Virus record (IMG/VR): IMGVR_UViG_3300002461_001191
From: a virus
Taxonomy: Duplodnaviria; Heunggongvirae; Uroviricota; Caudoviricetes
Direction: 5' to 3' (one strand)
Length of the DNA: 64,000 nt
Both the position numbers and the translations under genes were made by a program. The notes below the pieces were generated by a model, which worked only from the letters and a program-made list of their open reading frames with translations, was not told the DNA's origin and did not search any database. Numbering within the stretch: the first letter of the stretch is position 1; every line of letters begins with the position of its first letter. Positions 986 to 34,776 of the stretch are shown here, in pieces.

Positions 986-1012
986 TACTTAGTTGACTTT
1001 TACAACTAAGTA
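986..1012. promoter_or_regulatory. palindromic operator TACTTAGTTGA-N5-ACAACTAAGTA overlapping the -35 box of the pncB promoter (TTGACT 993-998, N17, TATAAT 1016-1021)
   Basis: Perfect 10-bp inverted repeat; identical 27-mer recurs at 21900-21926 (upstream of pncA) and near-identical at 32502-32527 (upstream of nadE, minus strand). Confidence 0.65.
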
Positions 1013-1051
1013 AGATATAATTCAATCACTGTAACAAAAAAGGAATGCAAA

Positions 1052-2242
1052 ATGCAACTCACTCAAGTTAGTCGAATTATCAAAAGCCTGCTGGACACTG
1101 ATCTGTACAAGTTCACCATGCAACAAACTGTTTATCACCAATTCCCTCATGCTCAAGATGTTGAGCTTCACTTCAAGTGCAGAACAGCAGGTGTTGATTT
1201 GGTTTCATACATGAAAAGAATCAATGAAGAAATTGATCATCTGTGTACTATGAAACTCTCAGAGGATGAGCTTCAGTACCTTGCTTCACAGCGCTATATG
1301 AAAGCTGATTACATCAACTTTCTGTCACTTTTCCAACTCCAGAGGAAGTATATCAATGTTGTTGCTTTGAACGACAAAGAGATTGATATTGTGGTGAAGG
1401 GGCCTTGGCTTTATGTCATCTTGTTTGAGGTTTTTGTTCTGTCTATTGTCAACGAAGTTTACTTCGAGATGTATTGGTCTGAAGAAACAAAGGCTGAAGG
1501 TGAGAAAAGACTCTTTGATAAAGTTGCATATGTAAAATCAATGGGTCAAGAGGATTTTAAATTCTCAGACTTTGGAACACGTCGCCGCTTTAGTTTTGCT
1601 TGGCAAGAGTTTGTTGTGAAAACTCTCAAGGAAGAGTTGCCTATGAACTTCACTGGCACCAGCAACGTCTACCTTGCCAAGAAGTACGGCTTGACTCCCA
1701 TTGGAACAATGGCACACGAATATCTGCAAGCCTGTCAGGCTCTGGGTCCACGCCTGCGTGACAGTCAGAAGTTTGCCCTTGAGAAGTGGGTTCAAGAGTA
1801 CCGTGGAGACTTGGGTATTGCTCTGACTGATGTGGTTGGAATTGACGCTTTCTTGGAAGATTTTGATCTGTACTTTTGCAAACTTTTTGATGGTGTGCGT
1901 CATGACAGTGGAGATCCATTTGATTGGGCAAAAAAGGTGATTGGTCACTACAAGAAAATGAAGATTGATCCCAAGACAAAGAGTCTGGTGTTCTCTGATG
2001 GACTTGATTTCAAGAAGTCATTTGAGCTTTTTGAAATGTTCAAAGGTGAGGCAAAGATGTTCTTTGGTATTGGAACCAACCTGACCAACGATTTGGGTCC
2101 AAAGGCAATCAACATTGTGCTTAAGATGACTTCTTGCAATGGTTCTCCTGTGGCAAAAATCAGTGATTCATCAGGTAAAACCATGTGTGAGAACGAAGAG
2201 TATCTTGCTTACCTCAAGCAAGTGTTTAAAATCAAAAACTGA
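1052..2242 (+). CDS. pncB: nicotinate phosphoribosyltransferase
   Basis: Collinear similarity to E. coli PncB throughout (LLDTDLYKFTM, FGTRRRFS, GIALTD, HDSGDP, GIGTNLT, CNGSPVAKISDS). Confidence 0.9.
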   Translation: MQLTQVSRIIKSLLDTDLYKFTMQQTVYHQFPHAQDVELHFKCRTAGVDLVSYMKRINEEIDHLCTMKLSEDELQYLASQRYMKADYINFLSLFQLQRKYINVVALNDKEIDIVVKGPWLYVILFEVFVLSIVNEVYFEMYWSEETKAEGEKRLFDKVAYVKSMGQEDFKFSDFGTRRRFSFAWQEFVVKTLKEELPMNFTGTSNVYLAKKYGLTPIGTMAHEYLQACQALGPRLRDSQKFALEKWVQEYRGDLGIALTDVVGIDAFLEDFDLYFCKLFDGVRHDSGDPFDWAKKVIGHYKKMKIDPKTKSLVFSDGLDFKKSFELFEMFKGEAKMFFGIGTNLTNDLGPKAINIVLKMTSCNGSPVAKISDSSGKTMCENEEYLAYLKQVFKIKN

Positions 2243-6309: not shown

Positions 6310-6382
6310 AGGGGATTAGTGTAATTGGTTAGCACATCGTCCTTTGAAGTCGAGAGTCTAGGTTCAAGTCCTGGGTCCCCCG
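6310..6382 (+). tRNA. tRNA-Gln(UUG), type a (no encoded CCA; A1.C72 and one U.U in anticodon stem)
   Basis: Acceptor AGGGGAT/GTCCCCC; U8A9; D-stem GTGT/GCAC; anticodon loop CTTTGAA; T-arm CTAGG-TTCAAGT-CCTGG. Confidence 0.55.
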
Positions 6383-6415
6383 CAAAAAATAATGAAAGGA
6401 AATTTAAAAGTTTAT

Positions 6416-6490
6416 TGGGGATAAATCGATTGGAGCAGATACTTGGCTTTGAACCAAGGTGAGTGGGTTCGATTCCCACATCCCCTGCCA
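6416..6490 (+). tRNA. tRNA-Gln(UUG), type b copy 1 (CCA encoded; U1.U72)
   Basis: Acceptor TGGGGAT/ATCCCCT; anticodon stem CTTGG/CCAAG; loop CTTTGAA; T-arm GTGGG-TTCGATT-CCCAC; 75 nt. Confidence 0.7.
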
Positions 6491-6496
6491 AAAAAT

Positions 6497-6572
6497 GGAC
6501 TTGTAGCTCAGTTGGTAGAGCAGCAGACTGAAAATCTGTGTGTCGGCAGTTCGATTCTGCCCAAGTCCACCA
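6497..6572 (+). tRNA. tRNA-Phe(GAA), type a (canonical, CCA encoded)
   Basis: GGACTTG-TA-GCTC-AGTTGGTA-GAGC; anticodon loop CTGAAAA; GGCAG-TTCGATT-CTGCC; CAAGTCC-A-CCA; close to E. coli tRNA-Phe. Confidence 0.9.
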
Positions 6573-6606
6573 GTTAGTTTTAGTTGTTTAATAGGATAGG
6601 TTTAAT

Positions 6607-6684
6607 GCCGCCTTGGTGTAAATTGGTAGAGCACAAAAGACTGAAAATCTTTGGGTCTCGGTTCGATTCCGAGGGGCGGCACCA
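6607..6684 (+). tRNA. tRNA-Phe(GAA), type b (divergent body, CCA encoded)
   Basis: Acceptor GCCGCCT/GGGCGGC; anticodon stem AAAGA/TCTTT; loop CTGAAAA; T-arm CTCGG-TTCGATT-CCGAG. Confidence 0.75.
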
Positions 6685-6718
6685 GGTTGTTTTGTTGAAA
6701 TTATATATGTGTTTTTAT

Positions 6719-6793
6719 TGGGGGTAAATCGATTGGAGCAGATACTTGGCTTTGAACCAAGGTGAGTGGGTTCGATTCCCACACCCCCTGCCA
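6719..6793 (+). tRNA. tRNA-Gln(UUG), type b copy 2 (CCA encoded; U1.U72)
   Basis: Near-identical to 6416-6490; acceptor pair 6:67 changed A-T to G-C on both strands (compensatory), which confirms the register. Confidence 0.7.
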
Positions 6794-6840
6794 ATCTTAA
6801 AATTAAGTATACAGGTAAGTATATTTAATTTTAAGATTAT
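6794..6840. repeat. 18-bp inverted repeat (ATCTTAAAATTAAGTATA / TATATTTAATTTTAAGAT) with 8-nt loop, filling the whole spacer between two tRNAs
   Basis: Reverse-complement arms with one G.U position; begins 1 nt after the CCA of the upstream tRNA and ends 1 nt before the next tRNA. Confidence 0.6.
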
Positions 6841-6916
6841 GCTGTTTTAGCTGATGTGGTCATAGCGCGTGGTTGAAGCCCATGAGAAGTTGGTTCGATT
6901 CCAACAGGCAGCACCA
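6841..6916 (+). tRNA. tRNA-Phe(GAA)-like, type c (G37, two G.U in acceptor stem; CCA encoded)
   Basis: Acceptor GCTGTTT/AGGCAGC; D-stem GCTG/TAGC; anticodon stem CGTGG/CCATG; loop TTGAAGC; T-arm GTTGG-TTCGATT-CCAAC; 76 nt. Confidence 0.5.
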
Positions 6917-6923
6917 GATTATT

Positions 6924-6978
6924 GGGTCGGTTTGTGGTAAACCTAGGAATGCGAGTTCGAGTCTCGTCCGATCCACCA
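6924..6978 (+). other. tRNA-like minihelix: acceptor stem + T-arm + CCA but only 20 nt where D and anticodon arms should be (truncated tRNA or remnant)
   Basis: GGGTCGG ... GCGAG-TTCGAGT-CTCGT-CCGATCC-A-CCA; 55 nt. Confidence 0.35.
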
Positions 6979-7000
6979 GTTGTTTTTTTAAGGGGTTAAT

Positions 7001-7168
7001 ATGAGCAAGCTAGAGAAAAAGAAAGAAAAATTAAAACAAAGAATTGCTGATCTTGAGTTTGAAATGAGGAATATACTTCAGAAGAAATCTCAAGGTGCAG
7101 CTATTAATATTCAAAACTATAACTCAAAGATTATGGATTTGAAAAAAGAGTTGAGTTCCATGAATTAA
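7001..7168 (+). CDS. small coiled-coil protein (55 aa) embedded in the tRNA array
   Basis: ATG 7001 preceded by AAGGGG; MSKLEKKKEKLKQRIADLEFEMRNILQKKSQGAAINIQNYNSKIMDLKKELSSMN; below the length cutoff of the ORF track. Confidence 0.3.
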   Translation: MSKLEKKKEKLKQRIADLEFEMRNILQKKSQGAAINIQNYNSKIMDLKKELSSMN

Positions 7169-7178
7169 TTTTTACAGT

Positions 7179-7253
7179 TGGCGCATAGTGTAATGGTCAG
7201 CACAATTGACTTTGAATCAGTTGGTTCCAGTTCGAATCTGGATGCTCCTGCCA
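7179..7253 (+). tRNA. tRNA-Gln(UUG), type a copy 2 (CCA encoded; U1.U72 and C4.U69 mismatches)
   Basis: TGGCGCA-TA-GTGT-AATGGTCA-GCAC; anticodon stem ATTGA/TCAGT; loop CTTTGAA; TCCAG-TTCGAAT-CTGGA; TGCTCCT-G-CCA. Confidence 0.55.
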
Positions 7254-10406: not shown

Positions 10407-12686
10407 ATGACAATTGCTCGTACTTGGGATGGGATTAATCTAATGAACTTTAAATTAGTTAATAAGAATAATATATTTAAAGAGGGTACTTTTGAAAATA
10501 TACTTGTGGAACAAGTAATCAAATTCTTCGAGCATGATTGTTACAATAGAGATACAGTAAAAGCTCCATTTTATGCTTCAGAGCATTATTTTTATGAAAA
10601 TATTCTTGCTTCAAGAATTCTAAAATATTTAAGTCAACATAAAATTGATATACCTATGGATATTACATTCAAGTCTCTTCTTGGACAAAAGGCTTGTTGG
10701 TATGCAAGATTGTCTGGTTGTATTGAAGCTAAAAAAATCACTGATGGAGTTTATCACGGATACAAACCTAATGTTCCAGTTTTCGGATTATATCTTGAGT
10801 CTGGTATCATTGATTTGCTCAAAGATTCTGATTTTATCAATAAATTAATTAAAACAAGTCCTACAAAAGATGGATTAAAACATTTAATTGAAGTAGCAAA
10901 GCTATCTTCTGCATTTAGACAACTATTGAGAATGCCAACAATTGAGTTTGATCCTAAAAATGAAAGTTCAATTTATCATAAAAGTAAATATAAAAATTTA
11001 AAAGTTAACAATATAAATATAAAAAATTATCAATCTTTTAATTTTCAAACATGGCCAGAAATAGAAAACATAGAGGTTGCAGCAACAACTAGAGGTATAT
11101 ATCATCATTTGGGAGATGATGTTGCTTTTATGTTAAGTGCAATGGAGTATGGTGATTTTTGTATATTGGGATCAGATGAGTTTGGTGATATTATACCTAT
11201 GTATTATTATTCTTATAATCTAATGAATACTGTTAGCTTTGATGACAATAGAATTTTTAGTTGGGAAGATTTTGATTATATTTATGGTGTACCAAGAATT
11301 AATGCTCTTTATCCATCTGCTAATAATGTTATATTTAAATATGCAAGTGAAGATAAAGATCAGTGCCTTATTAATAAAAAAGAAAATTCTGCTTTAGCTG
11401 GTGCTTTTTGGAATAATTCTGTATTTAATCAGTTATCAGGAAGAAATATAGCAACTAAAAGTTTGAAGGAATTATCTTTAGAGCTTAAACAATGTGTTGA
11501 AAAAGCAATTGAAAATAGTCAATTTGTAAAAAATAATGAAAATTTAGAAAAGTTTTTTTTAGAAAAATATTTTCATAACAAGTGCTTAGATCTCAATAAT
11601 CAGGATGAAGTAGATTTTTTAAACATTGCTAATTCTTTTATTAGAAAAAATTACTCTTTCTTTATAAAAACTGTTGCACAAAAAGTTAACTGTATGGTTA
11701 TTAATCCTGAAGAAAAAACACAGCTTGCTTTCTTTAAAAAATCAGGTGAAAGCAAAGCACCAGCGTACCTTGATTTGCTATATTTATTAAAGTTTTTTAT
11801 GACTCAATCAAAAGAAAATAAAGAGTTGGGATTGACTGTTGAGTTTTATCAAAAAGCTTTAATCAATTTTTTGTTAGGAGATAATCCTAAAGGATTTTGG
11901 GAGAGAGAATATATTCACTTATATAATTATTGGTTAAATTTAGATAAAAAATCATTTGTTGTATCTGATTTAGTTGAGATGAATAATGAGTATAGAATAT
12001 TTATTGTTAATGGTAAGATTGCTACAGGAACGCCATGCTACAGAAATACAACTCCATTTAATGCTTGGACAAAAGGAAGATTAGACCCAAGGTTATGTGA
12101 TGGACATAATGCAACAGAAATTAAATTGGATAATAGTACAAGAAATATTGCAGCAAAATATGGTCGTTTTGCTCGTAAGTTTTTGTCTTTAATGAACAAG
12201 GAATATCCAGAAATAAAAAGTTATGTTTTGGATGTTTGTATAAGTTATGATAAAGATAATAATATGGTAGTGATGCCAATAGAAGTTAATTCTATTAATA
12301 TGTCTGGAGCATATCAGGCTGATATGAGAAAAATATGTGCTGTGGTTGCTGGAAAGAAGTCAAACATATCAAGTTTAAATAATGTTTTTAATTTAGATTC
12401 GTTAATGTCTAATCCTATAGATTTTATTATCAATAAAAGTATATATTATGGTGCTGGAGATGATTCAATTAAAGGTGTTATAGAAGATGTATATGAAATA
12501 CAATCTGATATCATACAGGAAAAAATTAATCAAATAGATCAGAGAAATCCAGATAATTTAACAGATTCAGATGAGAATTATGATGATACTGAAACTAATG
12601 AGTTCCTTGATTTTATTGATAGTGTCAATAAACCAACAATTATTGATTTAGATGTAGATACTACAAATAAAAATGAAAAAATGTGA
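10407..12686 (+). CDS. large protein with C-terminal ATP-grasp-like domain
   Basis: EYRIFIVNGKIATGT ... VLDVCISYDKDNNMVVMPIEVNSINMSGAY resembles ATP-grasp strand motifs; paralogous to 29007-29918. Confidence 0.5.
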   Translation: MTIARTWDGINLMNFKLVNKNNIFKEGTFENILVEQVIKFFEHDCYNRDTVKAPFYASEHYFYENILASRILKYLSQHKIDIPMDITFKSLLGQKACWYARLSGCIEAKKITDGVYHGYKPNVPVFGLYLESGIIDLLKDSDFINKLIKTSPTKDGLKHLIEVAKLSSAFRQLLRMPTIEFDPKNESSIYHKSKYKNLKVNNINIKNYQSFNFQTWPEIENIEVAATTRGIYHHLGDDVAFMLSAMEYGDFCILGSDEFGDIIPMYYYSYNLMNTVSFDDNRIFSWEDFDYIYGVPRINALYPSANNVIFKYASEDKDQCLINKKENSALAGAFWNNSVFNQLSGRNIATKSLKELSLELKQCVEKAIENSQFVKNNENLEKFFLEKYFHNKCLDLNNQDEVDFLNIANSFIRKNYSFFIKTVAQKVNCMVINPEEKTQLAFFKKSGESKAPAYLDLLYLLKFFMTQSKENKELGLTVEFYQKALINFLLGDNPKGFWEREYIHLYNYWLNLDKKSFVVSDLVEMNNEYRIFIVNGKIATGTPCYRNTTPFNAWTKGRLDPRLCDGHNATEIKLDNSTRNIAAKYGRFARKFLSLMNKEYPEIKSYVLDVCISYDKDNNMVVMPIEVNSINMSGAYQADMRKICAVVAGKKSNISSLNNVFNLDSLMSNPIDFIINKSIYYGAGDDSIKGVIEDVYEIQSDIIQEKINQIDQRNPDNLTDSDENYDDTETNEFLDFIDSVNKPTIIDLDVDTTNKNEKM

Positions 12687-15996: not shown

Positions 15997-17973
15997 TTAA
16001 ATGAGGTAAAGAAATTTGTGAATATTTTCACTTATTTCTTTAGTTCTTGAGTTTATGTCATCAATAGTAAAAAAATCTTGTTTTTGACATATTAATTCTA
16101 TTTGTTTTAATTGGTGTTTTTGTTTTTCATAAACATATTGTTTTTTCTTGATAAAAGTATTATTTTTTGCCTCTTCATTTGAAGTATCATCAAGTAAAAT
16201 AAAGTTTCCAAGTTGATTTAATTCACTTTTATTTAATTCTTTATATTTAGGATTAATTTGTATTAATTTTTTCTGCACTAATGGAATAATATGTTCAATT
16301 TGAATATTTTCTTTAATAGTTTGTTTAAAAATTGCTTGTTTTAATTGGTTAAAATCAACTTGAGATAGTGATAATTCATATAAATATAGAATTCCTTTTC
16401 TAACTTGTAAAAAATTATACTCTTTCCATTTTTCGTATATTTTGGTTTCATCTATTGGATTAAAAAATAGTTTTGTGCTAATAAATTTGATTATATCGTT
16501 ATTGGTTTTAACCTCTTGTAATAAGTCTGGGAAAACAGATATATTCATAATATTGTTGTTTATATAGTTGTTGTTTGCTCCATTGTAAACACCCATAAAA
16601 TAAATTTTAATAATATCTTGTAGTAGTTTTATAAATTTATTTTTTTCTATTTGTTCATTATTTTTAGGGTATAGTTCTAATAAAACAGGAGTGTAAAGAT
16701 CTAATAAGTCTAAGTGATCTAATATATATAAATAGATAGATGCCTCATGAAAGGGATCAGTAAAACCTTTAATTTGTTTATATATTATTTCAAATTGCTC
16801 TAATTGTTTGTAGAAATTTAATGTTTCGTTATTACTCCAAACGGTAGGATTGAGAACTGAATTGTTAAGGAAAGAAGTAAGTTTTTCTATGCTTACTATT
16901 TTCTCGTTTTTGAAAATGCTTGTATTTGTTATTTTAAAAACAGACATAACATATCTATCAAGATTGTCTTCACCAAGATTTGTTTTCAATTGTTTAAAAA
17001 AATCATTAACTTTTTGACCATTATCTGTTCCGTCTTCTGCTAATATAAAGGTATTTTTAATTAAATCGATAGGCTTTAGTGTTTTCCCTGTATTATTTTT
17101 ATTTTGAAATATAATTGATGGATTAATTTTTGAACTAAATACTTCTATAGTAATAAGAGTATTAAAAAAACTATCTATAACGTTACTAAAATCTTTTAAA
17201 GATTCCTTTGAAATGTACAATTTATGGTTGTAATCATATACTATGTTTAATTTTTTATGAAAAAAATGAAATATACAAACTAAAGCTTCTAGTGTATGTT
17301 TAAAAGATTGTATATCTTTTTTAATATCCTTATTTTTATAATATAATATATTTAGTATTTCTGTATATGTTTGTTTCTTGTTTTTATTTTGACATAATAT
17401 ATTAAATATGTTTTCTCTGTTTTTTATGAGAGAGCAATAAAATTCATTATATTGAGTTGAGTTTATAAATTTAAGCTTTGATACTTCTTCACCGTTTTTG
17501 TTGTTAACTAAAACATTATTTAAAGAGTTTAGTTTTATGTGTTCTTGTTTAAATTTAGAGTAAATCTCTTTTTTCCTTTTATCAATTGATAATGTTAAGG
17601 TCTTCTCAAAATTTTCTTCATTTAAAGATATTGTTTTTTGAAATAGAACCTCTAAAAATAGTGCTATCAAGCTCAATGTTGTTGTTCTTTGTTGTCCATC
17701 CATTATAGAAACTAAATTTTCTTTAACTGGTTGTAAGATTAGACTGCCAATTTCTGCATTAATGTATTCATTAGAAAAGTCATTTGATAAGTTCACATTA
17801 AAAATAGTGTCTAAAAGTTTATGAACATGCTTATGTTCCCATTCATACTCTCTTTGGTAGTACTGCATAACAAATTCTGGATTTTCTAAAGAAAATGCTT
17901 CTCCTGTCATGTAGTCTTTAATTTTCCTGACTTCAGCTTGTTTAATGTTTTTTTCATCTGTTAAAGATAGCAT
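15997..17973 (-). CDS. GmrSD-family type IV restriction endonuclease (DUF262 + DUF1524)
   Basis: N-terminal DUF262 with DGQQRTTTL motif; C-terminal His-Me finger IEHIIPL ... GNFILLDDTSNEEAKN. Confidence 0.75.
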   Translation of the reverse strand: MLSLTDEKNIKQAEVRKIKDYMTGEAFSLENPEFVMQYYQREYEWEHKHVHKLLDTIFNVNLSNDFSNEYINAEIGSLILQPVKENLVSIMDGQQRTTTLSLIALFLEVLFQKTISLNEENFEKTLTLSIDKRKKEIYSKFKQEHIKLNSLNNVLVNNKNGEEVSKLKFINSTQYNEFYCSLIKNRENIFNILCQNKNKKQTYTEILNILYYKNKDIKKDIQSFKHTLEALVCIFHFFHKKLNIVYDYNHKLYISKESLKDFSNVIDSFFNTLITIEVFSSKINPSIIFQNKNNTGKTLKPIDLIKNTFILAEDGTDNGQKVNDFFKQLKTNLGEDNLDRYVMSVFKITNTSIFKNEKIVSIEKLTSFLNNSVLNPTVWSNNETLNFYKQLEQFEIIYKQIKGFTDPFHEASIYLYILDHLDLLDLYTPVLLELYPKNNEQIEKNKFIKLLQDIIKIYFMGVYNGANNNYINNNIMNISVFPDLLQEVKTNNDIIKFISTKLFFNPIDETKIYEKWKEYNFLQVRKGILYLYELSLSQVDFNQLKQAIFKQTIKENIQIEHIIPLVQKKLIQINPKYKELNKSELNQLGNFILLDDTSNEEAKNNTFIKKKQYVYEKQKHQLKQIELICQKQDFFTIDDINSRTKEISENIHKFLYLI

Positions 17974-21149: not shown

Positions 21150-21872
21150 GTGGTTATGTCAAACTCAGTTAAATTGCCGTTGAAAAAAGATATCACATTA
21201 GATAGTTTTCAAGTTTCACCTATTGTATTTAATAGGAATAAATTAGATAGTGTAGCTGCCTTTTACGACATAAGTCATGAAGCAGAAAAATCATTGAAAA
21301 ATTTTCAGGATAAATTAGACCATTTAAGTGAACAATTTAAAAACAATCAGATTGATATGTCTCAATATGTTAAGGAGCTTGAGTCAATCAATAACGATTC
21401 ATCAAAAACTGATATCAAAATAAGTATGAATAGAAGTGGTAAATTTATAGTCTCAGTTGAGGCTGAATTAAAGTTGGAGTATCAAACAGATAAGCAAATT
21501 GCAGCAAGTGTAAAGGCGGGCAAGTTTGTTGAGAAAAAAGTAAATCAAAAACAATACTTGTATGTTGTTGTTTGGGAAGAGTCTGAGCGCGGTTGGGACG
21601 TCAGACCTGATGGTTGCTCAGCACACTTATCAGAGAAAGCTGCTATGGATTTTATAAAGAAACAGCAAGACTCTTTACCTAAAGGCTATGTACCAGATGA
21701 GTATTCAAGACCATCAGGAAAACCTCATTTGGTAGAGGTTTCAAAAAGTCTATATGACTATGTTGTTTCAAAAGGTGAAGCTAAAGCTGATACTTGGTTG
21801 AATGTGAACAACCCTAAAGACTTGGTTAATTTTGACGCTTCAAGTCTAGGTAAGAAGATACCTTCCATTTAA
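21150..21872 (+). CDS. hypothetical protein
   Basis: 240 aa ORF with AAAGGAG RBS. Confidence 0.45.
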   Translation: MVMSNSVKLPLKKDITLDSFQVSPIVFNRNKLDSVAAFYDISHEAEKSLKNFQDKLDHLSEQFKNNQIDMSQYVKELESINNDSSKTDIKISMNRSGKFIVSVEAELKLEYQTDKQIAASVKAGKFVEKKVNQKQYLYVVVWEESERGWDVRPDGCSAHLSEKAAMDFIKKQQDSLPKGYVPDEYSRPSGKPHLVEVSKSLYDYVVSKGEAKADTWLNVNNPKDLVNFDASSLGKKIPSI

Positions 21873-21899: not shown

Positions 21900-21926
21900 T
21901 ACTTAGTTGACTTTTACAACTAAGTA
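21900..21926. promoter_or_regulatory. NAD-gene operator copy 2, inside pncA promoter (TTGACT 21907-21912)
   Basis: 27-mer identical to 986-1012. Confidence 0.65.
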
Positions 21927-21959
21927 TGGCATAATTAAATCATATTAAAGGAGAACACT

Positions 21960-22757
21960 ATGAAAAACGCTTTACTACTTATTGACTTCCAAAACGACTT
22001 TATTGACGCACCATCTTTTCGAGGTGCATTGGCTGTGAGTGGTGCTTATCAGGATGTGTTGAGAACTGTGCAATACATCAAGAGCAATCAAATTGATGAT
22101 ATTTTTGTCACTGTAGATACTCACAGTGTCATGGATATTGCTCATGCTTCATGGTGGGTTGATAAAGAGGGTAAGCACCCAAGTCCATTTACTCTTATCA
22201 CTGTGGATGATGTTGTGAGTGGTAAGTGGATGACAGCAGATCCTAAAGAGCAGGAGTGGAGTTTGTTTTATGTCAAAGAATTGGCAAAGAACAACAAATA
22301 TACTTTGTGTGTTTGGCCAGATCATTGCATTAAGGGGTCTTATGGTTGGGATATTGCTCCAGAAATTAAAGAAGCATTGAAAGATTGGGAGTTGAGTACT
22401 GGAAAGTCTGTCAACTATGTGTACAAGGGCATGAACCCAAGGACTGAGCACTACTCTGGTTTTAAGGCTGAAGTCTTGGTTGAGTCAGACGCTGGAACTG
22501 AATTGAACATGGATTTGATCAAGTCTTTAATGAAGTATGATAGGGTCAGTGTTGCAGGAGAGGCTTTGTCTCATTGTGTTGCGTCTTCAGTGACTGATTT
22601 GCTGGAAAATATTTCTGACAAATCAAAAGTCACAATCTTGAAAGATTGCATGAGCAGTGTTACAGGCTTTGAAGCTAACGGAGAGAAGTTCTTGGATTGG
22701 GCAAAGTCTCAAGGTGCAGTTCTTGAAACTGTAGGTAAAATGAAATTAAAAATGTAA
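21960..22757 (+). CDS. pncA: nicotinamidase (isochorismatase family, Pnc1/PncA type)
   Basis: LLLIDFQNDFI, metal/active-site region VDTHS, WPDHCIKGSYG, C-terminal Cys region SHCVASS. Confidence 0.7.
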   Translation: MKNALLLIDFQNDFIDAPSFRGALAVSGAYQDVLRTVQYIKSNQIDDIFVTVDTHSVMDIAHASWWVDKEGKHPSPFTLITVDDVVSGKWMTADPKEQEWSLFYVKELAKNNKYTLCVWPDHCIKGSYGWDIAPEIKEALKDWELSTGKSVNYVYKGMNPRTEHYSGFKAEVLVESDAGTELNMDLIKSLMKYDRVSVAGEALSHCVASSVTDLLENISDKSKVTILKDCMSSVTGFEANGEKFLDWAKSQGAVLETVGKMKLKM

Positions 22758-22862
22758 TTCTATATTTCATGAAATATAAGAGATCCCTGTGGATGAAAAT
22801 TCATGGGGATTTTTGTTTTATTTTTTCGTTTTGATATAATAAGTAATAAAGGAATTTTAAAA

Positions 22863-23441
22863 ATGGAAAACTTCATACTTCAAGAGCATAAAAGTGATAA
22901 ATACGGTCCCAGAACATATCATAATGCCAACTCTGCGGATTTGACTGTTGCCTTTGCTGTTGATTTGCATACTGCGGGTGAGGTTTTGACACACAAAGCA
23001 GCAGGAGATAGATATATAGGTTTTCAGTTGACAGATGAGACAACTTCTCTTGAATTGGCTAGACAACTTTATAGAAAAATGAAGTCCATGAATGCAAAAA
23101 GTTTGAACATAGCAGGCAATGGGATATACACACTATCAAAACACAATTGCTCTCAACAATTTATCAACGAATTTGTTTATGATGTTTTATCCAGAGTTCA
23201 TGAGCATTTACCTATAGAGAAAATTGTCTCTGGGGGTCAAACAGGTGTAGATATAGCAGGTGCTGTAGCAGCAAAGAAGCTCAATATTCCTGCTGTAATT
23301 ACATTTCCTAAAGGTTTTATGCAAAGATTTGAAGATAAAAGAGATATATTTCAAACAAAAGAAGCAGTAGAAGAACAAATAAATTATTGGGTGAATGCTC
23401 TTGTGCCTAGTAATGAAAGAAAAGCTAAAAATACAATTTAA
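22863..23441 (+). CDS. SLOG-superfamily protein (YpsA / molybdenum-cofactor-carrier-like)
   Basis: SGGQTGVDIAGAVAAKKLNIPAVITFPKGF matches GGQTGxD ... CPKG signature of MoCo-carrier/YpsA clade; start re-set to Met 21 of the ORF-track ORF. Confidence 0.45.
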   Translation: MENFILQEHKSDKYGPRTYHNANSADLTVAFAVDLHTAGEVLTHKAAGDRYIGFQLTDETTSLELARQLYRKMKSMNAKSLNIAGNGIYTLSKHNCSQQFINEFVYDVLSRVHEHLPIEKIVSGGQTGVDIAGAVAAKKLNIPAVITFPKGFMQRFEDKRDIFQTKEAVEEQINYWVNALVPSNERKAKNTI

Positions 23442-28359: not shown

Positions 28360-29010
28360 ATGATGATAATACAGTCATTTCAACCTCAATCTGTGCTAGA
28401 TGATATCAATAAAAACGGTTTGGCATTTTCAAAACCAGATTTTTCTATTTGGGATGGTGAAATCATTAACCCAGATTTAATTTGGGGGTTTAGGCATTCA
28501 TATGAGTGGATGGTTCAACAGATGAATAGAAGTGTAGAGAATAACACATTTGCTAAATTTCCATTCTGGGGTTGGGCTTGGTCTGGAGACAACGATCAAA
28601 AATATATAGATTTATCATTACATAAAGAGTATTCGGGAGAATACTTAATAACAATGGAGTTGGATGAAAAAGATTTATTTTTTAGTGATTTTCAATTATG
28701 GCACTATGTTTTGAACTATTGGCCAATAGTGTCTTCAGAAGAAGAAAGAATTTTCTTTGAGGCATTGGAGAAAGACAAAAAAAACAATTATTATGATAAT
28801 AAACCGTTGAAAGATATTGTTTATGATTTAAAGATAAGAAACACTTGGAATAAGATTTTTTCTTTAAGGAAAAGTGGTGATTTTTTTATCAGTTCTTTAA
28901 GTGAAAAAGAGATTGAGTACTTAGAAATGAGTCCTGAAGAAAAAATAGTGACTCAATCTTGTTTTTGGAATATTGAGAAAAAAAATATATTAAAGGTTGA
29001 AAAAATATGA
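28360..29010 (+). CDS. hypothetical protein, translationally coupled to ATP-grasp gene
   Basis: 216 aa; stop overlaps next start (ATGA). Confidence 0.4.
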   Translation: MMIIQSFQPQSVLDDINKNGLAFSKPDFSIWDGEIINPDLIWGFRHSYEWMVQQMNRSVENNTFAKFPFWGWAWSGDNDQKYIDLSLHKEYSGEYLITMELDEKDLFFSDFQLWHYVLNYWPIVSSEEERIFFEALEKDKKNNYYDNKPLKDIVYDLKIRNTWNKIFSLRKSGDFFISSLSEKEIEYLEMSPEEKIVTQSCFWNIEKKNILKVEKI

Positions 29011-29918
29011 GAGTAAAGTGGTTAATTCAGTCTAATGGAGTTACTAGAAAACCTTTGGAAGAAGAGTTTTTTGCAAAAAATCTTCAAATGTTTGATTTTG
29101 CAATGATTCCATTCACACATAAAATCATTAATCTGGACACTATTTTTTTAGATTTTTTAACAAATAAAGATGTCTCCTATGTTCTAAAGGGTGGTACAAG
29201 AATATTGGATATTTTAAAAGATGACGGGTTTGTAGAAGAAAATAAAAAAATCTTATTGGAACATGCTTCTGAGGAATATGTTGATTTATTTTTTAATAGA
29301 TTTAAAGCTGGGTTGTTTTATGATTTAGACAAGTTTGATCAAGCACATTATTCCTCTATTGGATTGCCTATGCTCAATCAAAGTCCATTTGTTGGGTATT
29401 TTCACGATGTAAAAGCCATTGTTTTTGAAAAAGACATGTTTGTGAAGCCCACATCTGATGGAAAGAGTTTTGCTGGTAAGATTCTACCCAAAGGGCAAAG
29501 TTTGGAAGATTTGCTAAAAACCATCATGTATCAAGAAAAGGTTAGTAAAGAGACTATCATGTTCTCTGAGATTAAAAATGTTCTTCATGAGTTCAGGTTT
29601 TTCATTATCAATGATGAGGTTGTCACTGGTAGTCAATACATGCAAGATCATAGGGTTGTTGTAAGAAATTTGTCAGATTCAGAGTTGGATAAAAAAGCAC
29701 TTGAGGTGGCTCAAGATTATGCTTTGCTGTATAAGCCAAGTGATGTGTTTACTCTAGATATATGTCTTGAGAGTAGTGGAAGATGGAGTATTGTGGAGTA
29801 TAACTGTTTTAATTGTTCAGGTCTTTATGCTGCTGACTTGATGAAGCTGACTCAATCAATGGAGAATTTTTTAATCAAAAAAACAACAAATTTAAAAATT
29901 AAATCATCCTTTACTTAA
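29007..29918 (+). CDS. ATP-grasp-like protein (paralog of C-terminal domain of 10407-12686)
   Basis: EFRFFIINDEVVTGS ... FTLDICLESSGRWSIVEYNCFNCSGLY. Confidence 0.5.
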   Translation: MRVKWLIQSNGVTRKPLEEEFFAKNLQMFDFAMIPFTHKIINLDTIFLDFLTNKDVSYVLKGGTRILDILKDDGFVEENKKILLEHASEEYVDLFFNRFKAGLFYDLDKFDQAHYSSIGLPMLNQSPFVGYFHDVKAIVFEKDMFVKPTSDGKSFAGKILPKGQSLEDLLKTIMYQEKVSKETIMFSEIKNVLHEFRFFIINDEVVTGSQYMQDHRVVVRNLSDSELDKKALEVAQDYALLYKPSDVFTLDICLESSGRWSIVEYNCFNCSGLYAADLMKLTQSMENFLIKKTTNLKIKSSFT

Positions 29919-29959: not shown

Positions 29960-30292
29960 ATGAATACAGAAAAAATTGTTTCCTTCTTGCGTGGTATTTC
30001 TCACTTGAGTGAGATTAATGTAAAACCCAATAAAGACTTTAAACACAAGTTTGTTGATTTGACTGGTCAAATGAACTGGGTTGTTGTGGATGATAGTAAG
30101 GTTGCTATTGATTCTCATGCAAGAATTATTTTTGATTTGTCTGAAAAAGAAGACAGATTGGAATTACTCAGCGCTCTTGCATATCAGAAATATAAATCAG
30201 ACCAATATGACTTGATTGTAGCAGAAAACGAAAAGTTTGTGCTTGAACATTTTAAAGGTGATGATATCAGTGGTTATTTCTTTGACGCCTGA
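29960..30292 (+). CDS. hypothetical protein
   Basis: 110 aa ORF. Confidence 0.35.
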   Translation: MNTEKIVSFLRGISHLSEINVKPNKDFKHKFVDLTGQMNWVVVDDSKVAIDSHARIIFDLSEKEDRLELLSALAYQKYKSDQYDLIVAENEKFVLEHFKGDDISGYFFDA

Positions 30293-30831
30293 TATTTTGT
30301 TTTTTGCTCAATGATTGCTGTGATTGTTTTCTTCTTCAGTAGAAGGTCAATCAACAAAGATCCTGAAATGAATACAATATTTTGATGTTCTTTTACAATG
30401 TTTTTTGATCGCTCACCAGTTTTGCCAGTGTGGGCAAAAACTCCGTAATAGTATTTGCCATCTTTTACCTTTTGTGCCAAATCTAAAACATCTTTATTGT
30501 TGATGTAGTTCTTATATCTTTTGCATTGAATCAACACTTTGCCTTGTTTTATTTTGAATTTTCCGTCTATACCTCCGTCATTGGAGTATGATTTGTTCCT
30601 TATAATATGGACATTGGTATCTTGTATAACATTGAGGATGAGTTCTTCAAAAACAAAAGGATTTATTTTTTTTAAGTAGTTTATGCTCTTGGGATAGCCA
30701 TATTCTTGAGAACTTATTTCAACTATTTTTTTCAAAACTTCTTTGGCTTTTCTGATTCTATACAAATGAACCCATTTGCCCAAGAGTCTGAACCTGTTGA
30801 TTATAATTGACCAAATTTTTATCCAATTCAT
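30274..30831 (-). CDS. restriction-endonuclease-like protein (Mrr_cat domain only)
   Basis: SNDGGIDGKFKIKQGKVLIQCKRYKNY matches Mrr catalytic core D-x-GIDG ... QCK. Confidence 0.55.
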   Translation of the reverse strand: MNWIKIWSIIINRFRLLGKWVHLYRIRKAKEVLKKIVEISSQEYGYPKSINYLKKINPFVFEELILNVIQDTNVHIIRNKSYSNDGGIDGKFKIKQGKVLIQCKRYKNYINNKDVLDLAQKVKDGKYYYGVFAHTGKTGERSKNIVKEHQNIVFISGSLLIDLLLKKKTITAIIEQKTKYQASKK

Positions 30832-31578: not shown

Positions 31579-32448
31579 TTAACTCTCTTTGAAACCAGGA
31601 ATTGGTGATCTTTTGAATCTTGTTACATCAAAGTGGTTGATGATTTTCTCTTCAACTTCCTCTGGAATGGCAATACCTTCTAGGAAGTCATCCATGTAGT
31701 CGTAGTTGAAGCCAAAGCCTTCATCATCAAGTTTTCCAGGGTTGAGTTCTTCTAAGTCTGCTGTAGGTGGTTTTTTCCACAAAGCTTCTGAAGCACCCAA
31801 TTCTTTGGCAACCAGTCTAATTTGTCTTTTGCTCAAACCGTTAAGCACTGTCACATCACATGCTTCATCGCCAAATCTTGTGTAGAAAGCCATCACATAT
31901 TCTGCATTGTGGTCTGTTCCAACAACAACACCTTCAAACATCGCAGCAATTTGGTATTGTACAAGCATGCGGATTCTGGCTTTCATATTGCCTTTGTTGA
32001 AATCAACTTGGGACTCTGTAATTTCACCTCCCACACGTCTGAACTCCATCACACCTTGAATGCTGAGGTTGTTGGCTGCTTCACCAATATTGACTGTCAT
32101 TGACTTGTCAGGTTGAATAAATTTCAGTGCTTCTTGTGCAGATGATTCATCTAGTTGAACACCTGCTGGAAGTCTAACAGCAACGAATTGTGCAAAATAA
32201 CCTTCTGCTCTGAGTTCTTCACAGGCAATCTGACACAATTTGCCTGTAGTACTTGAATCAACTCCACCACTGATCCCAAGAACAAAAGCTTTTCTACCAG
32301 AATTTTTCAAAAATCTCTTCAAGTGATCAACGCGTTTCCTGATAGCTTCCTTGGGGTTGAAAAGTGCTGTTGATACAACTGCATTGCCTGCCAAAATTTC
32401 TGCTTTGATTTCTTGATATCTGCTGCTTGATTTTGTGATTCTGGTCAT
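31579..32448 (-). CDS. nadE: NH3-dependent NAD+ synthetase
   Basis: PP-loop GISGGVDSS; collinear NadE similarity. Confidence 0.9.
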   Translation of the reverse strand: MTRITKSSSRYQEIKAEILAGNAVVSTALFNPKEAIRKRVDHLKRFLKNSGRKAFVLGISGGVDSSTTGKLCQIACEELRAEGYFAQFVAVRLPAGVQLDESSAQEALKFIQPDKSMTVNIGEAANNLSIQGVMEFRRVGGEITESQVDFNKGNMKARIRMLVQYQIAAMFEGVVVGTDHNAEYVMAFYTRFGDEACDVTVLNGLSKRQIRLVAKELGASEALWKKPPTADLEELNPGKLDDEGFGFNYDYMDDFLEGIAIPEEVEEKIINHFDVTRFKRSPIPGFKES

Positions 32449-32501
32449 AATTTTCTCCGTTGGTTAATTGACTTAAATGTTTAAGTGGAAGTATTATTGC
32501 A

Positions 32502-32527
32502 TACTTAGTTGAAAAAGTCAACTAAGT
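32502..32527. promoter_or_regulatory. NAD-gene operator copy 3 (ACTTAGTTGA-aaaag-TCAACTAAGT) in nadE promoter on minus strand
   Basis: On minus strand reads ACTTAGTTGACTTTTTCAACTAAGT with TTGACT -35 and ATAATA -10; 54 nt upstream of nadE ATG. Confidence 0.65.
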
Positions 32528-32600: not shown

Positions 32601-32951
32601 TTGCCTAAAATTGATTGTTTTATTATACTTTTCATTATGCAAAAAAATATCATTTATTCATTCATAGATTTTTTACAATATGTAGAAGATGAGATGAATT
32701 TGAGTGTACAAAAATTCTCTTTTGAACCCAAAGATATGAAAATTTGGGTGATTAATAAGTTTGAAGCCAAAGATGGTTTTGTTTTAAGAACACCAGATAG
32801 GGAATATTTTTACATAGATTTCACCAAGGACAGTTTGATTTTATCTGGATTGGGAGAAAGCGATATTGTAAAGTTAGCAGACTTCAATTTATTTGATAAT
32901 ACTTTATTTGATGATTTGAAAAAAGAGATTTCCAAGTTTTTACCTAATTGA
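32601..32951 (+). CDS. hypothetical protein
   Basis: 116 aa ORF. Confidence 0.35.
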   Translation: MPKIDCFIILFIMQKNIIYSFIDFLQYVEDEMNLSVQKFSFEPKDMKIWVINKFEAKDGFVLRTPDREYFYIDFTKDSLILSGLGESDIVKLADFNLFDNTLFDDLKKEISKFLPN

Positions 32952-32964
32952 AGATAAGTTATCA

Positions 32965-33264
32965 ATGAATAAAAAAGAAAAAAATCAAGAAGATGAGCTA
33001 ATTGTCAAAAAGTGGAAGATAAAGTCATTTATGTCACTACTTTTTTTTGTGATATTCAGTTGTGTTTTTATGCTGGATGTTGTGGTTTATAAAAATAGTT
33101 CGCTGGCTGGTTTATGTATCATAGGACTTTTTATATCTTGGTTTGCTTTTTCTCACTATCATACAAGAGTTGCTATTTATAAAATAAAGAAGATTACAGA
33201 TGAATATTTAATCAGTGCAGAATTGCGTAAAATGGAAATAAGAGACATGAATTCTGGATCTTGA
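32965..33264 (+). CDS. hypothetical membrane protein
   Basis: 99 aa, 2 TM helices. Confidence 0.35.
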   Translation: MNKKEKNQEDELIVKKWKIKSFMSLLFFVIFSCVFMLDVVVYKNSSLAGLCIIGLFISWFAFSHYHTRVAIYKIKKITDEYLISAELRKMEIRDMNSGS

Positions 33265-33302
33265 AAAATTTTAATGTAGAATGTTAGTAGGAGACAATTT
33301 CT

Positions 33303-34202
33303 ATGAACAAAAATGTAACATTCACAATTGAAGGCGATTATATTACAGATATATCCAGACAAAGACTTCAAGAGGGTTCATGGAAGAGTGCTTTAAAGAT
33401 TCTTGATTGCATTGATGGTCTCAATACAGACCAAAAGTTTGATATATTAACTGGTAAAATGTATCTCAGTGGTAGCAATGATTTGTCACTTGAAGAAGAT
33501 ACAAGGCAAGAGTCTAAGGAATATAAAGATTGGATTGCTAAGAAGTGTTCTGGTGTTTTCTTATATGATGGTAAACAGTATGAGCCTTATGCTGTAGTTG
33601 ATTCATGGTGTGATCAGGATTTGAACCATAATATTCAATTTAATTCAATTTCAAGAAAAGTTTGTAGAGAATTTGAAACCAAATTATATGACGATTATGA
33701 GCTAGGGAATAAAAATTATGGTGATGGTCATCCACATGGAAGAAGCTTACACTATGCAGATAATCCTGAAGAAGACTTGGCTTTTATTGTTCCTCTGGAG
33801 TCCAGTAGTAAATATAAAGCAAAAGTTGTTTTATTTAAGCGCATGAAGGAGGAAATTCCATTTTTTATGGAAGATAAAATGAGTAAATCACCTCTAGAAG
33901 CAATTGAGACTTATCAAGAACATCTTGATTCAAGAGGTGCAAAATATGAGTATCAAGATGAAGACCCAGATGTAAATCTGGAAAATATACTTTTATCAAA
34001 AGATGATTTTTTAGATGAATCTTATATAAGGGAACAGAAAAAATTTGAAGATGAGATAGAAAATTACAAGAAAAAAATCATAGAGTTTGCTGATAATGAT
34101 AAGGTTTATGGCTGGAAGGTGTTAGAAGATGATGAGGGAAGACAATTAAGAGTACCAGGCAGAGCATTCCTACATTATTCAATAAAGGCGTATGCGATAT
34201 GA
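33303..34202 (+). CDS. hypothetical protein, coupled to downstream swivel-domain gene
   Basis: 299 aa; stop overlaps next start. Confidence 0.4.
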   Translation: MNKNVTFTIEGDYITDISRQRLQEGSWKSALKILDCIDGLNTDQKFDILTGKMYLSGSNDLSLEEDTRQESKEYKDWIAKKCSGVFLYDGKQYEPYAVVDSWCDQDLNHNIQFNSISRKVCREFETKLYDDYELGNKNYGDGHPHGRSLHYADNPEEDLAFIVPLESSSKYKAKVVLFKRMKEEIPFFMEDKMSKSPLEAIETYQEHLDSRGAKYEYQDEDPDVNLENILLSKDDFLDESYIREQKKFEDEIENYKKKIIEFADNDKVYGWKVLEDDEGRQLRVPGRAFLHYSIKAYAI

Positions 34203-34723
34203 TAGGAGAATACAAGCCTATTTGTCCAATGGGCTTGAAGATGTCTGTGGACAATCCAATACATACAGACGCTTGGTTAGGTGCTGGCTTAAGTCTTGAC
34301 TCTGCCTATGACCAGTCTTGGCAACAGCAGTTGTTCTTTTCTTATGCATACAAACATCAGTCAGATTTTTTTGGCTATGATTTCCATGTCATTACAAGGG
34401 CAGGCCAAAAGGAGTTCACTGGTACAATTTGCTCACCTAACAATATAGATAAAGTTGATGGTAAGAAAATTCTTGTTTTGCCTCACTTGGGAGTTGAGTT
34501 TGAGCATGTGGCTCTCAAAGCTGATATGATTATCTGTGAACAAGGTGGTGCATTGGCACACTTGGTGACTGTGACAAAAGAAGGCAGCAAGCCTATTCCT
34601 ATCATAAGAATAGATGACGCTGTAATCAGGTTCCTATCCAACATCAATGTAAAAGTAGATTTAATAGAAGGCAAAATAAAAAATTTGGATGAAAAATCTG
34701 ATAAGAAACCCAAACATAAATGA
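34199..34723 (+). CDS. stand-alone PEP-utilising-enzyme mobile (phosphohistidine swivel) domain protein
   Basis: KKILVLPHLGVEFEHVALKADMIICEQGGALAHLVTVTKEGSKPIPII resembles PEP-utilizers domain core (E-GG-x-x-H ... GIP). Confidence 0.45.
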   Translation: MIGEYKPICPMGLKMSVDNPIHTDAWLGAGLSLDSAYDQSWQQQLFFSYAYKHQSDFFGYDFHVITRAGQKEFTGTICSPNNIDKVDGKKILVLPHLGVEFEHVALKADMIICEQGGALAHLVTVTKEGSKPIPIIRIDDAVIRFLSNINVKVDLIEGKIKNLDEKSDKKPKHK

Positions 34724-34776
34724 TTGACTAATTTGGCATTTGTGATATCTTAAATTCAACTTCAAAGGAGTGTAAG

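What the first reader, a model, noticed from the sequence alone, without database searches (positions are those of the whole stretch)
986..1021. Identical palindromic operator in the consensus promoters of pncB, pncA and nadE: a compact NAD regulon
The sequence ACTTAGTTGA-N5-(T/A)CAACTAAGT occurs three times in the window (986-1012, 21900-21926, 32502-27 on minus). Each copy lies 40-55 bp upstream of the start codon of an NAD salvage or final-step gene. Each overlaps a near-consensus sigma70 promoter (TTGACT-N17/18-TATAAT) such that the -35 hexamer lies within the left half-site. Length and symmetry suit a dimeric repressor such as the NrtR or NiaR classes known to control NAD genes. No such regulator gene is recognisable in this window, and the motif does not match the NadR, NiaR or NrtR boxes I can recall, so the regulator may be of a different type.
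Basis: seen in the sequence. Interest (0 to 1): 0.75.

Follow-up and report, generated by a model that had tools for sequence, protein, structure and literature searches.

The report
NrtR repressor sites on NAD genes
Three NAD-salvage genes of an uncultured low-GC bacterium carry the same palindromic repressor site inside their promoters, and comparison with related genomes points to the already known ADP-ribose-sensing regulator NrtR, so this is a tidy but ordinary regulon.

Summary
ACTTAGTTG-N7-CAACTAAGT occurs exactly three times in the window (987-1011, 21901-21925, 32503-32527). Each copy lies inside a near-consensus sigma-70 promoter of pncB, a pncA-like nicotinamidase gene or nadE. No weaker copy exists in about 83 kb of this genome.

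The identical 18-base palindrome lies beside genes for NrtR (Nudix domain plus NrtR winged-helix domain) in distant bacteria, in nrtR<>prs-nadV, pncA-nrtR and pncB loci. It also occurs in nine low-GC relatives of the window organism. There it sits in the promoters of pncB, pncA, nadE and of nrtR itself, usually as a nadD-nrtR operon. Across 27 such promoters the arms are nearly invariant, the flanks are not, and the -10 follows at a fixed distance.

The most likely mechanism is that an NrtR dimer occludes the -35 and spacer, and ADP-ribose relieves repression. That effector role is known from published work on other NrtR proteins.

The organism's own nrtR gene was not found; it is not in the window or within about 10 kb on either side. 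Verdict: a new member of a known kind, of low interest.

The parts
987..1011 (+). Operator 1: ACTTAGTTGACTTTTACAACTAAGT, in the pncB promoter
   Evidence: The same site is present in pncB promoters of relatives L106, L116, L117, L123, L130, L134, L137 and L148.
993..1021 (+). pncB promoter: -35 TTGACT (993-998), 17-nt spacer, -10 TATAAT (1016-1021)
   Evidence: 11 of 12 consensus positions. The -35 lies inside the operator.
1052..2242 (+). pncB, nicotinate phosphoribosyltransferase (396 aa)
   Evidence: NF003704, 570 bits; TIGR01514, 490 bits; both above cut-off; NAPRTase_N plus NAPRTase.
21901..21925 (+). Operator 2: ACTTAGTTGACTTTTACAACTAAGT, in the promoter of the pncA-like gene
   Evidence: Orthologous sites occur in L114, L130 and L134.
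21907..21935 (+). pncA-like promoter: -35 TTGACT, 17-nt spacer, TG-extended -10 CATAAT
   Evidence: 10 of 12 consensus positions plus an upstream TG.
21960..22757 (+). pncA-like nicotinamidase (265 aa, divergent isochorismatase fold)
   Evidence: PRK11609 at E 2.8e-13, below cut-off; Isochorismatase; best PDB matches are nicotinamidases, E 3e-7 to 1.6e-4. The enzymatic function is inferred.
32503..32527 (-). Operator 3: ACTTAGTTGACTTTTTCAACTAAGT (read on the minus strand), in the nadE promoter
   Evidence: An orthologous site precedes the 68%-identical nadE in L107.
32493..32521 (-). nadE promoter: -35 TTGACT (32521-32516), 17-nt spacer, TG-extended -10 AATAAT (32498-32493)
   Evidence: 10 of 12 consensus positions plus an upstream TG.
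31579..32448 (-). nadE, NH3-dependent NAD+ synthase (289 aa)
   Evidence: NF001979, 315 bits, cut-off 250; NAD_synthase.

Best explanation
[quoted passage not shown] The repressor gene lies elsewhere in this genome.

A repressor dimer bound to the 25-bp site covers the -35 hexamer and the spacer of each promoter. This keeps RNA polymerase off pncB, the pncA-like gene and nadE, which are three of the four steps of the Preiss-Handler salvage route from nicotinamide to NAD.

When NAD is being consumed, its breakdown product ADP-ribose binds the Nudix-like domain, NrtR leaves the DNA, and salvage and the final amidation step are switched on together.

Shown here: the sites, their promoter context, their restriction to NAD genes, and their co-occurrence with nrtR in relatives and in distant taxa. 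Inferred: that this organism has nrtR. Taken from published work on other NrtR proteins: repression and the ADP-ribose effector.
For: 1. Three identical 18-base palindromes lie in near-consensus promoters of NAD genes and nowhere else in about 83 kb.

2. A scan of one genome per species found the exact palindrome in about 33 loci outside the Gaiellaceae-type actinobacterial MAGs. Eleven of these have an NrtR gene within about 1.5 kb. Two of those proteins, scanned against Pfam, match NUDIX plus NrtR_WHD at E 2.6e-24 and 2.7e-20. Their neighbours include a prs-like gene and nadV, and isochorismatase genes. Six Myxococcales/Polyangiales loci have the site next to pncB.

3. Low-GC metagenome and assembly contigs encode PncB 57-72%, PncA-like 43-52% and NadE 68% identical to the window's proteins. 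They carry the same site in the same promoter position for pncB, pncA and nadE. They also carry it in front of nrtR or a nadD-nrtR operon, implying autoregulation. This holds in nine distinct lineages.

4. A stack of 27 such promoters shows near-invariant arms, unconserved flanks and a -10 element fixed 4-5 nt downstream.

5. The profile of these regulators matches Shewanella oneidensis NrtR (PDB 3GZ5/3GZ6) at E 2e-54.

6. Published NrtR sites are palindromes that overlap promoters or lie between promoter and start codon. ADP-ribose releases NrtR from DNA in vitro, and regulons such as nrtR-nadD<>pncA-pncB-nadE are described (PMC2330246). The mycobacterial NrtR site has the same arm-N7-arm layout, GTTTTCGA-N7-TCGAAAAC (PMC6800001).
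Against: No nrtR or nadD gene lies in the window, in 9 kb upstream or in 10 kb downstream. Six candidate NrtR proteins taken from the homology searches, plus a cluster member of a seventh (P0352), were traced to their contigs, and all belong to other species. The regulator of this particular organism is therefore inferred, not seen.

The central core GT-N7-AC, which PMC2330246 gives for most NrtR motifs, is not literally present; the symmetric positions here read TG-N7-CA.

The same palindrome also lies 17-55 nt upstream of MarR-GNAT fusion genes in four phyla. A second winged-helix family might therefore recognise it.

No binding or expression data exist for this organism.
Confidence: 0.85

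Rival explanations
1. The sites are operators, but in this organism they are bound by a regulator of another family, for example a MarR-type winged-helix protein. This regulator either replaced NrtR or shares its specificity.
For: No nrtR lies within about 83 kb. In most relatives examined nrtR lies within a few kb of pncB, although in L140 no pncB was found within 10 kb of nrtR. The identical palindrome precedes MarR-GNAT fusion genes in Parabacteroides (L040), Terriglobales (L090), Polyangiaceae (L082) and Shewanella (L097).
Against: No MarR-GNAT homologue is found in the window or in any relative's locus. All nine related lineages examined have nrtR with its own site. In L140 and L148 nrtR is already unlinked from pncB by 6.7 kb or more, so absence from the window is not surprising. 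The regulated genes are the classic NrtR targets.
Confidence: 0.07
2. The sites are relics. The lineage lost nrtR and the palindromes persist only because they contain the -35 element.
For: The regulator gene was not found. The -35 hexamer is embedded in the left arm, so part of the site is under promoter selection anyway.
Against: All 18 palindromic positions are intact at all three sites. This includes the right arm and the outer left-arm bases, which have no promoter role. In an AT-rich genome with divergent flanks, unselected arms would have decayed.
Confidence: 0.05
3. The palindrome is not a protein-binding site but a generic repeated element: a promoter module, a REP-like hairpin or a terminator.
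For: The sequence can form a 10-11 bp hairpin. The terminator scan flags the minus strand at site 1. A closely related 25-mer, ACTTAGTTGCT-N3-AGCAACTAAGT, is scattered in dozens of copies through Gaiellaceae genomes.
Against: There are only three copies in about 83 kb and all precede NAD genes. None with up to 4 mismatches occurs elsewhere. The site lies upstream of the predicted transcription start, so it is not in the mRNA of the regulated gene. Sites 2 and 3 have no T-tract. No Rfam family matches there. The link to NAD genes and nrtR is conserved across species.
Confidence: 0.03

Closest known systems
NrtR regulons of Proteobacteria (Rodionov et al. 2008, PMC2330246), e.g. Pseudomonas nrtR-nadD<>pncA-pncB-nadE and Shewanella/Chromobacterium nrtR-prs-nadV
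   Same: The site is a palindromic operator overlapping the promoters of NAD salvage and final-step genes. The regulated genes are the same set: pncA, pncB, nadE, and nadD in relatives. In relatives the regulator is autoregulated and is a Nudix plus winged-helix protein. That protein matches S. oneidensis NrtR (PDB 3GZ5/3GZ6) at E 2e-54. The exact 18-base palindrome occurs in nrtR<>prs-nadV intergenic regions of Methylophilaceae and Burkholiderales MAGs.
   Different: In this organism the genes are scattered over 32 kb as three single-gene promoters rather than one cluster. nrtR is not linked to them. The conserved part is 25 bp (9-N7-9) rather than the 21 bp described. The GT-N7-AC core named in the paper is not literally present.
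Mycobacterium smegmatis NrtR (PMC6800001)
   Same: The operator layout is arm-N7-arm (GTTTTCGA-N7-TCGAAAAC, 23 bp). The regulator is an auto-repressor of NAD genes.
   Different: The arm sequence differs. It controls de novo synthesis (nadA/B/C), not salvage. It is reported there to be modulated by acetylation.
NadR of Enterobacteria
   Same: It is a dimeric repressor of NAD biosynthesis and salvage genes that binds a palindrome in their promoters.
   Different: Its operator is TGTTTA-N6-TAAACA (18 bp; PMC2330246). Its co-repressor is NAD, and it is an HTH domain fused to enzymes. Nothing of this kind was seen in the window or in relatives.
NadQ (PDB 7Q91)
   Same: It is a Nudix-like plus winged-helix regulator of NAD genes. 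The winged-helix part of the relatives' regulator profile matches it at E 7.6e-23.
   Different: The match is much weaker than to NrtR (E 2e-54) and covers only the C-terminal part. The relatives' proteins hit Pfam NrtR_WHD.

Membership tests
NrtR operator / NrtR regulon | Palindromic site of about 21-25 bp made of two arms separated by a short spacer | tested here: met
   9-N7-9 perfect palindrome at all three sites. The arm-N7-arm layout matches the mycobacterial NrtR site (PMC6800001).
NrtR operator / NrtR regulon | Site overlaps the promoter, or lies between promoter and start codon, of NAD metabolism genes | tested here: met
   The -35 hexamer lies inside each site and the -10 lies 4-5 nt after it. 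The genes are pncB, pncA-like and nadE.
NrtR operator / NrtR regulon | The same motif co-occurs with nrtR genes, including a site in front of nrtR itself, in related genomes | tested here: met
   Nine low-GC relatives show this (L106, L116, L117, L123, L130, L134, L137, L140, L148). Eleven distant genomes also do.
NrtR operator / NrtR regulon | An NrtR protein (Nudix-like domain plus NrtR winged-helix domain) is encoded in the same genome | tested here: inconclusive
   An NrtR HMM found no hit in any ORF of 50 aa or more in the window and the 9 kb upstream. The precomputed Pfam annotation of the 10 kb downstream shows no NUDIX or NrtR_WHD gene. The rest of the genome could not be reached. Seven candidate proteins that were traced belong to other species.
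NrtR operator / NrtR regulon | Conserved core GT-N7-AC, shared by most NrtR motifs (PMC2330246) | tested here: not met
   The symmetric central positions read TG-N7-CA; GT/AC occur two bases further out, giving GT-N11-AC. The paper says motifs vary between lineages, and the mycobacterial site also lacks this core.
NrtR operator / NrtR regulon | NrtR binds the site and ADP-ribose releases it | not testable with these tools
   This needs a gel shift or similar with purified protein. It is shown only for the Synechocystis and Shewanella proteins (PMC2330246).
NadR operator | TGTTTA-N6-TAAACA palindrome | tested here: not met
   The sequence read directly does not match the consensus quoted in PMC2330246.
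MarR-GNAT autoregulatory site (unnamed) | A MarR-GNAT fusion gene lies next to the palindrome | tested here: not met
   An HMM built from the five MarR-GNAT proteins found no hit in the window or in relatives' loci.

The most novel reading that the evidence does not exclude
Operator 3 may control a second transcription unit as well as nadE. A promoter-like site on the plus strand (TTGACT-N18-TATTAT, 32468-32497) would start transcription at the left edge of the operator. Transcription would run into a tightly spaced string of five genes (32637-35643). Four of these have no significant family match; one of them carries a sub-threshold phosphohistidine swivel-domain-like motif. The fifth is an SPFH/Band 7 protein. 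If NrtR gates this string too, these unknown proteins would be new members of an ADP-ribose-responsive NAD regulon. Separately, it is not excluded that in this organism a non-NrtR regulator reads the site.
Probability: 0.15. Interest if true: 0.4.

Novelty: new member of a known kind. Interest (0 to 1): 0.2.

Why it matters
It documents an NrtR-type NAD-salvage regulon in an uncultured, low-GC, probably host-associated bacterial lineage in which most genes have no annotation. It also yields a very sharply defined operator-promoter cassette, conserved across at least ten lineages. That cassette could be used to find the rest of the regulon and to annotate divergent pncA and nadD genes in these genomes. 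It does not reveal a new regulator class or a new mechanism.

Tried and rejected
1. The 240-aa ORF directly upstream of the pncA operator (21150-21872) is the same length as NrtR, so I tested it as a divergent NrtR. It has no Pfam hit and no NrtR HMM hit. Rejected.

2. I checked small ORFs divergent from pncB and nadE (75 aa and 220 aa in L001; 104 aa and 99 aa in the window) as possible regulators. The first two are a small membrane-anchored protein and a secreted-type protein judged by sequence. The other two have no significant Pfam match. Rejected.

3. I tried to find this organism's own nrtR. Two protein searches were followed by contig look-ups of P0019, P0014, P0047, P0112, P0078, P0021 and P0352. 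All came from other samples and other species.

4. I extended beyond both window edges. No nrtR, nadD or further site was found.

5. The genome-collection scan did not return the window's own species, so the whole-genome regulon could not be defined.

6. I recalled that the 299-aa and 174-aa proteins next to nadE might resemble the phage ADP-ribose pyrophosphokinase Adps. The literature says Adps is PRPS-like (PMC13586617 abstract), so the idea was dropped.

7. The S. oneidensis operator sequence could not be retrieved because PMC2896262 is not held.

8. Rfam shows no riboswitch or other RNA family at the sites.

Full report
**Observation.** The window contains exactly three copies of ACTTAGTTG-N7-CAACTAAGT, at 987-1011, 21901-21925 and 32503-32527. 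Even allowing three mismatches there are no others, and shuffles predict 0.02. Allowing four mismatches, and adding 9 kb upstream (L001) and 10 kb downstream (L144) of the window, still gives only these three.

**Downstream genes.** Three genes follow the sites.
- pncB (1052-2242) scores 570 bits on NF003704, above cut-off.
- An isochorismatase-fold gene (21960-22757) has nicotinamidases as its best solved relatives. It scores below the curated PncA cut-off, so it is called pncA-like.
- nadE (31579-32448, minus strand) scores 315 bits on NF001979, above cut-off.

These assignments rest.

**Promoters.** The consensus scan finds TTGACT-N17-TATAAT (11/12) for pncB. For the pncA-like gene it finds TTGACT-N17-CATAAT with an upstream TG, and for nadE TTGACT-N17-AATAAT with an upstream TG. 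In each case the -35 hexamer straddles the end of the left arm and the spacer. The -10 begins 4-5 nt after the right arm.

**Source organism.** The window is bases 3-64002 of a 113-kb contig from an activated-carbon metagenome (ENA ERZ922819). The same proteins recur in about 15-25 Logan and ENA contigs. GC content is 32%. Most ORFs have no Pfam match. Ankyrin repeats, an ECF sigma factor, SmpB and ClpXP show that it is a bacterium. Its MnmG is 63-64% identical to those of Burkholderiales, its best named relatives. I take it as an uncultured low-GC lineage allied to the Proteobacteria; this placement is tentative.

**Evidence from distant genomes.** A scan of one genome per bacterial and archaeal species with the 18 specified bases gave 93 stretches. 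About 60 are a dispersed hairpin in actinobacterial MAGs of about 70% GC or more, mostly labelled Gaiellaceae or Gaiellales; this is treated below under things noticed.

Among the roughly 33 others, clustering the flanking ORFs gave one dominant family of about 240 aa. This family is NrtR. Two members scanned against Pfam match NUDIX plus NrtR_WHD at E 2.6e-24 and 2.7e-20. An HMM of the family finds a member within about 1.5 kb of the palindrome in 11 loci.

The neighbouring genes fit NAD metabolism.
- A prs-like gene and nadV lie beside nrtR in Methylotenera (L094). Homologous prs-like genes follow nrtR in Burkholderiales (L069) and Methylophilaceae (L104) MAGs.
- Isochorismatase genes lie in front of nrtR in L050 and L099. 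L050's protein matches Pfam Isochorismatase, and L099's is closely similar by sequence.
- pncB-type genes occur in six Myxococcales/Polyangiales loci.

The exact palindrome of the window is therefore used as an NrtR site in several unrelated lineages.

**Evidence from relatives.** A metagenome scan with the palindrome plus the embedded -35 (ACTTAGTTGAC-N5-CAACTAAGT) gave 18 loci, 12 of them with 25-37% GC. Their proteins are 57-72% (PncB), 43-52% (PncA-like) and 68% (NadE) identical to the window's. The site sits in the same promoter position. The NrtR HMM hits an ORF in four of these low-GC loci (L115 and L116 encode the same protein) and finds nothing in the window.

Using the L117 NrtR and then a profile of the clade, I traced further members to their contigs. 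Nine distinct lineages were examined: L106/L107, L116/L127, L117, L123, L130, L134, L137, L140 and L148. In every one, nrtR is preceded by its own copy of the site with 0-3 mismatches. In seven it follows a CTP_transf_like (nadD-type) gene as a nadD-nrtR operon; in L106 and L148 it stands alone. In the eight loci that include pncB, the pncB promoter carries a site.

In L140 and L148 nrtR is already separated from pncB: by about 6.7 kb in L148, and with no pncB within 10 kb of nrtR in L140. L148 shares the pncB-YkuD neighbourhood and the 32% GC of the window.

A stack of 27 sites from these lineages shows near-invariant arms (ACTTAGTTG and AACTAAGT), no conservation in the flanks, and a TAtaAT -10 at a fixed distance. 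This is the phylogenetic footprint expected of a functional operator embedded in a promoter.

**Identity of the regulator family.** The clade profile matches Shewanella oneidensis NrtR (PDB 3GZ5/3GZ6) at E 2e-54 over its full length. It matches Bacteroides AraR (an NrtR-family member) at 4e-41, and NadQ only over the winged-helix part at 8e-23. By eye, the Nudix box of the L117 protein has lost the catalytic REUXEE glutamates (it reads RVLAAK). This fits a ligand-sensing rather than a hydrolytic domain; it is my own reading of the sequence and was not tested further.

**Mechanism.** Published work (PMC2330246) describes NrtR sites as palindromes that overlap promoter elements or lie between promoter and start codon. 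It describes NrtR as a repressor whose DNA binding is suppressed by ADP-ribose in vitro. It also lists regulons of the type nrtR-nadD<>pncA-pncB-nadE. The mycobacterial site GTTTTCGA-N7-TCGAAAAC has the same arm-N7-arm layout (PMC6800001).

Applied here, a dimer on the 25-bp site would cover the -35 and spacer and exclude RNA polymerase. ADP-ribose accumulating from NAD consumption would release it. That would co-induce nicotinamide deamidation, phosphoribosylation and the final amidation step. The sites and their context are shown. The presence of NrtR in this organism is inferred. The effector is taken from other members of the family.

**What does not fit, or is missing.**
- nrtR and nadD are absent from the roughly 83 kb of this genome that I could read, and I could not locate them elsewhere.
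- The core GT-N7-AC quoted for most NrtR motifs is not literally present (it reads TG-N7-CA). That paper stresses variability of the motif.
- The same palindrome precedes MarR-GNAT fusion genes in four phyla, so a second family might read it. No such gene is present in the window or in relatives.
- A hairpin, terminator or RNA role is unlikely. The site lies upstream of the predicted transcription start, there are only three copies, and Rfam finds nothing there.

**Verdict.** The functional reading (a compact NAD regulon under a dimeric repressor) is supported. The suggestion of a new regulator type is not supported. This is a new member of the known NrtR kind, with a notably clean operator-promoter cassette. 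Interest is low (0.2).

The most novel reading left open is that operator 3 also gates the divergent five-gene string 32637-35643, which consists mostly of unknown proteins. I give this a probability of about 0.15.

Noticed in passing
L012-L104 (Gaiellaceae/Gaiellales MAGs, e.g. L012 5090-5114, L033 6078-6102 and 6138-6162): The AT-rich 25-mer ACTTAGTTGCT-N3-AGCAACTAAGT has an 11-bp stem and a 3-nt loop (CAG/CTG or GAC/GTC). It is scattered in dozens of copies through actinobacterial genomes of about 70% GC or more, mostly labelled Gaiellaceae or Gaiellales, and its flanks are unrelated. Twenty-eight copies fall in one MAG (CAWJWW01). It may be a dispersed hairpin repeat or the site of a global regulator. 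No NrtR gene was detected beside these copies.
   Followed up: partly
L040 2934-2958, L090 4572-4596, L082 5095-5119, L097 2551-2575 (also L110, L122): The identical 18-base palindrome lies 17-55 nt upstream of genes for MarR-GNAT (winged-helix plus acetyltransferase) fusion proteins. The organisms are Parabacteroides, Terriglobales, Polyangiaceae and Shewanella. Either this family autoregulates through the same sequence as NrtR, or NrtR controls an acetyltransferase. The second option is of interest because mycobacterial NrtR is reported to be regulated by acetylation (PMC6800001).
   Followed up: partly
window 32468-32497 and 32637-35643: A plus-strand promoter-like site (TTGACT-N18-TATTAT, 10/12) points through the nadE operator into five tightly spaced genes of 104, 99, 299, 174 and 288 aa. 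The 174-aa protein has a weak match to the PEP-utilizers phosphohistidine swivel domain (E 0.004, below cut-off). The last protein is an SPFH/Band 7 protein. In two distant genomes (L025, L027) an NrtR site also lies between nrtR and an SPFH gene, but the SPFH proteins are not close homologues.
   Followed up: partly
window 22803-23441: A gene for a circularly permuted YpsA (SLOG) domain protein follows the pncA-like gene after 45 nt on the same strand. It may be co-transcribed from the NrtR-controlled promoter. This pairing was not seen downstream of pncA in the relatives.
   Followed up: partly
window 6310-7250: A cluster of seven tRNA genes lies on the plus strand (Rfam).
   Followed up: no
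L118 2789-2813 (plus an adjacent overlapping site), L111 1852-1876, L105 6306-6330, L109 332-356: In some relatives the same operator precedes other genes. One case is an alcohol-dehydrogenase-like gene, followed in L118 by an asparagine-synthase-like gene. Another (L105; the L109 locus ends before the second gene) is a weakly Asp/Glu-racemase-like gene followed by a long 598-aa NadE homologue. These may be lineage-specific additions to the regulon.
   Followed up: partly
window 15997-17973, 30274-30831, 51128-52084; 10407-12686, 28360-29918: Defence or restriction-type genes are present: GmrSD, an Mrr-like endonuclease and an N6/N4 DNA methylase. Two R2K-type ATP-grasp genes are also present, one next to a DUF3841 gene. 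None is connected to the finding.
   Followed up: no
P0014, P0131, P0169, P0154: NCBI labels for NrtR proteins of this low-GC group read 'archaeon', 'Candidatus Woesearchaeota archaeon', 'Nanoarchaeota archaeon' and 'Shigella flexneri'. The loci traced here for this group (L127-L129, which encode P0014) and the window itself carry bacterial-type genes such as DsbB, SmpB and ClpXP. These labels therefore look like mis-binning or contamination.
   Followed up: no
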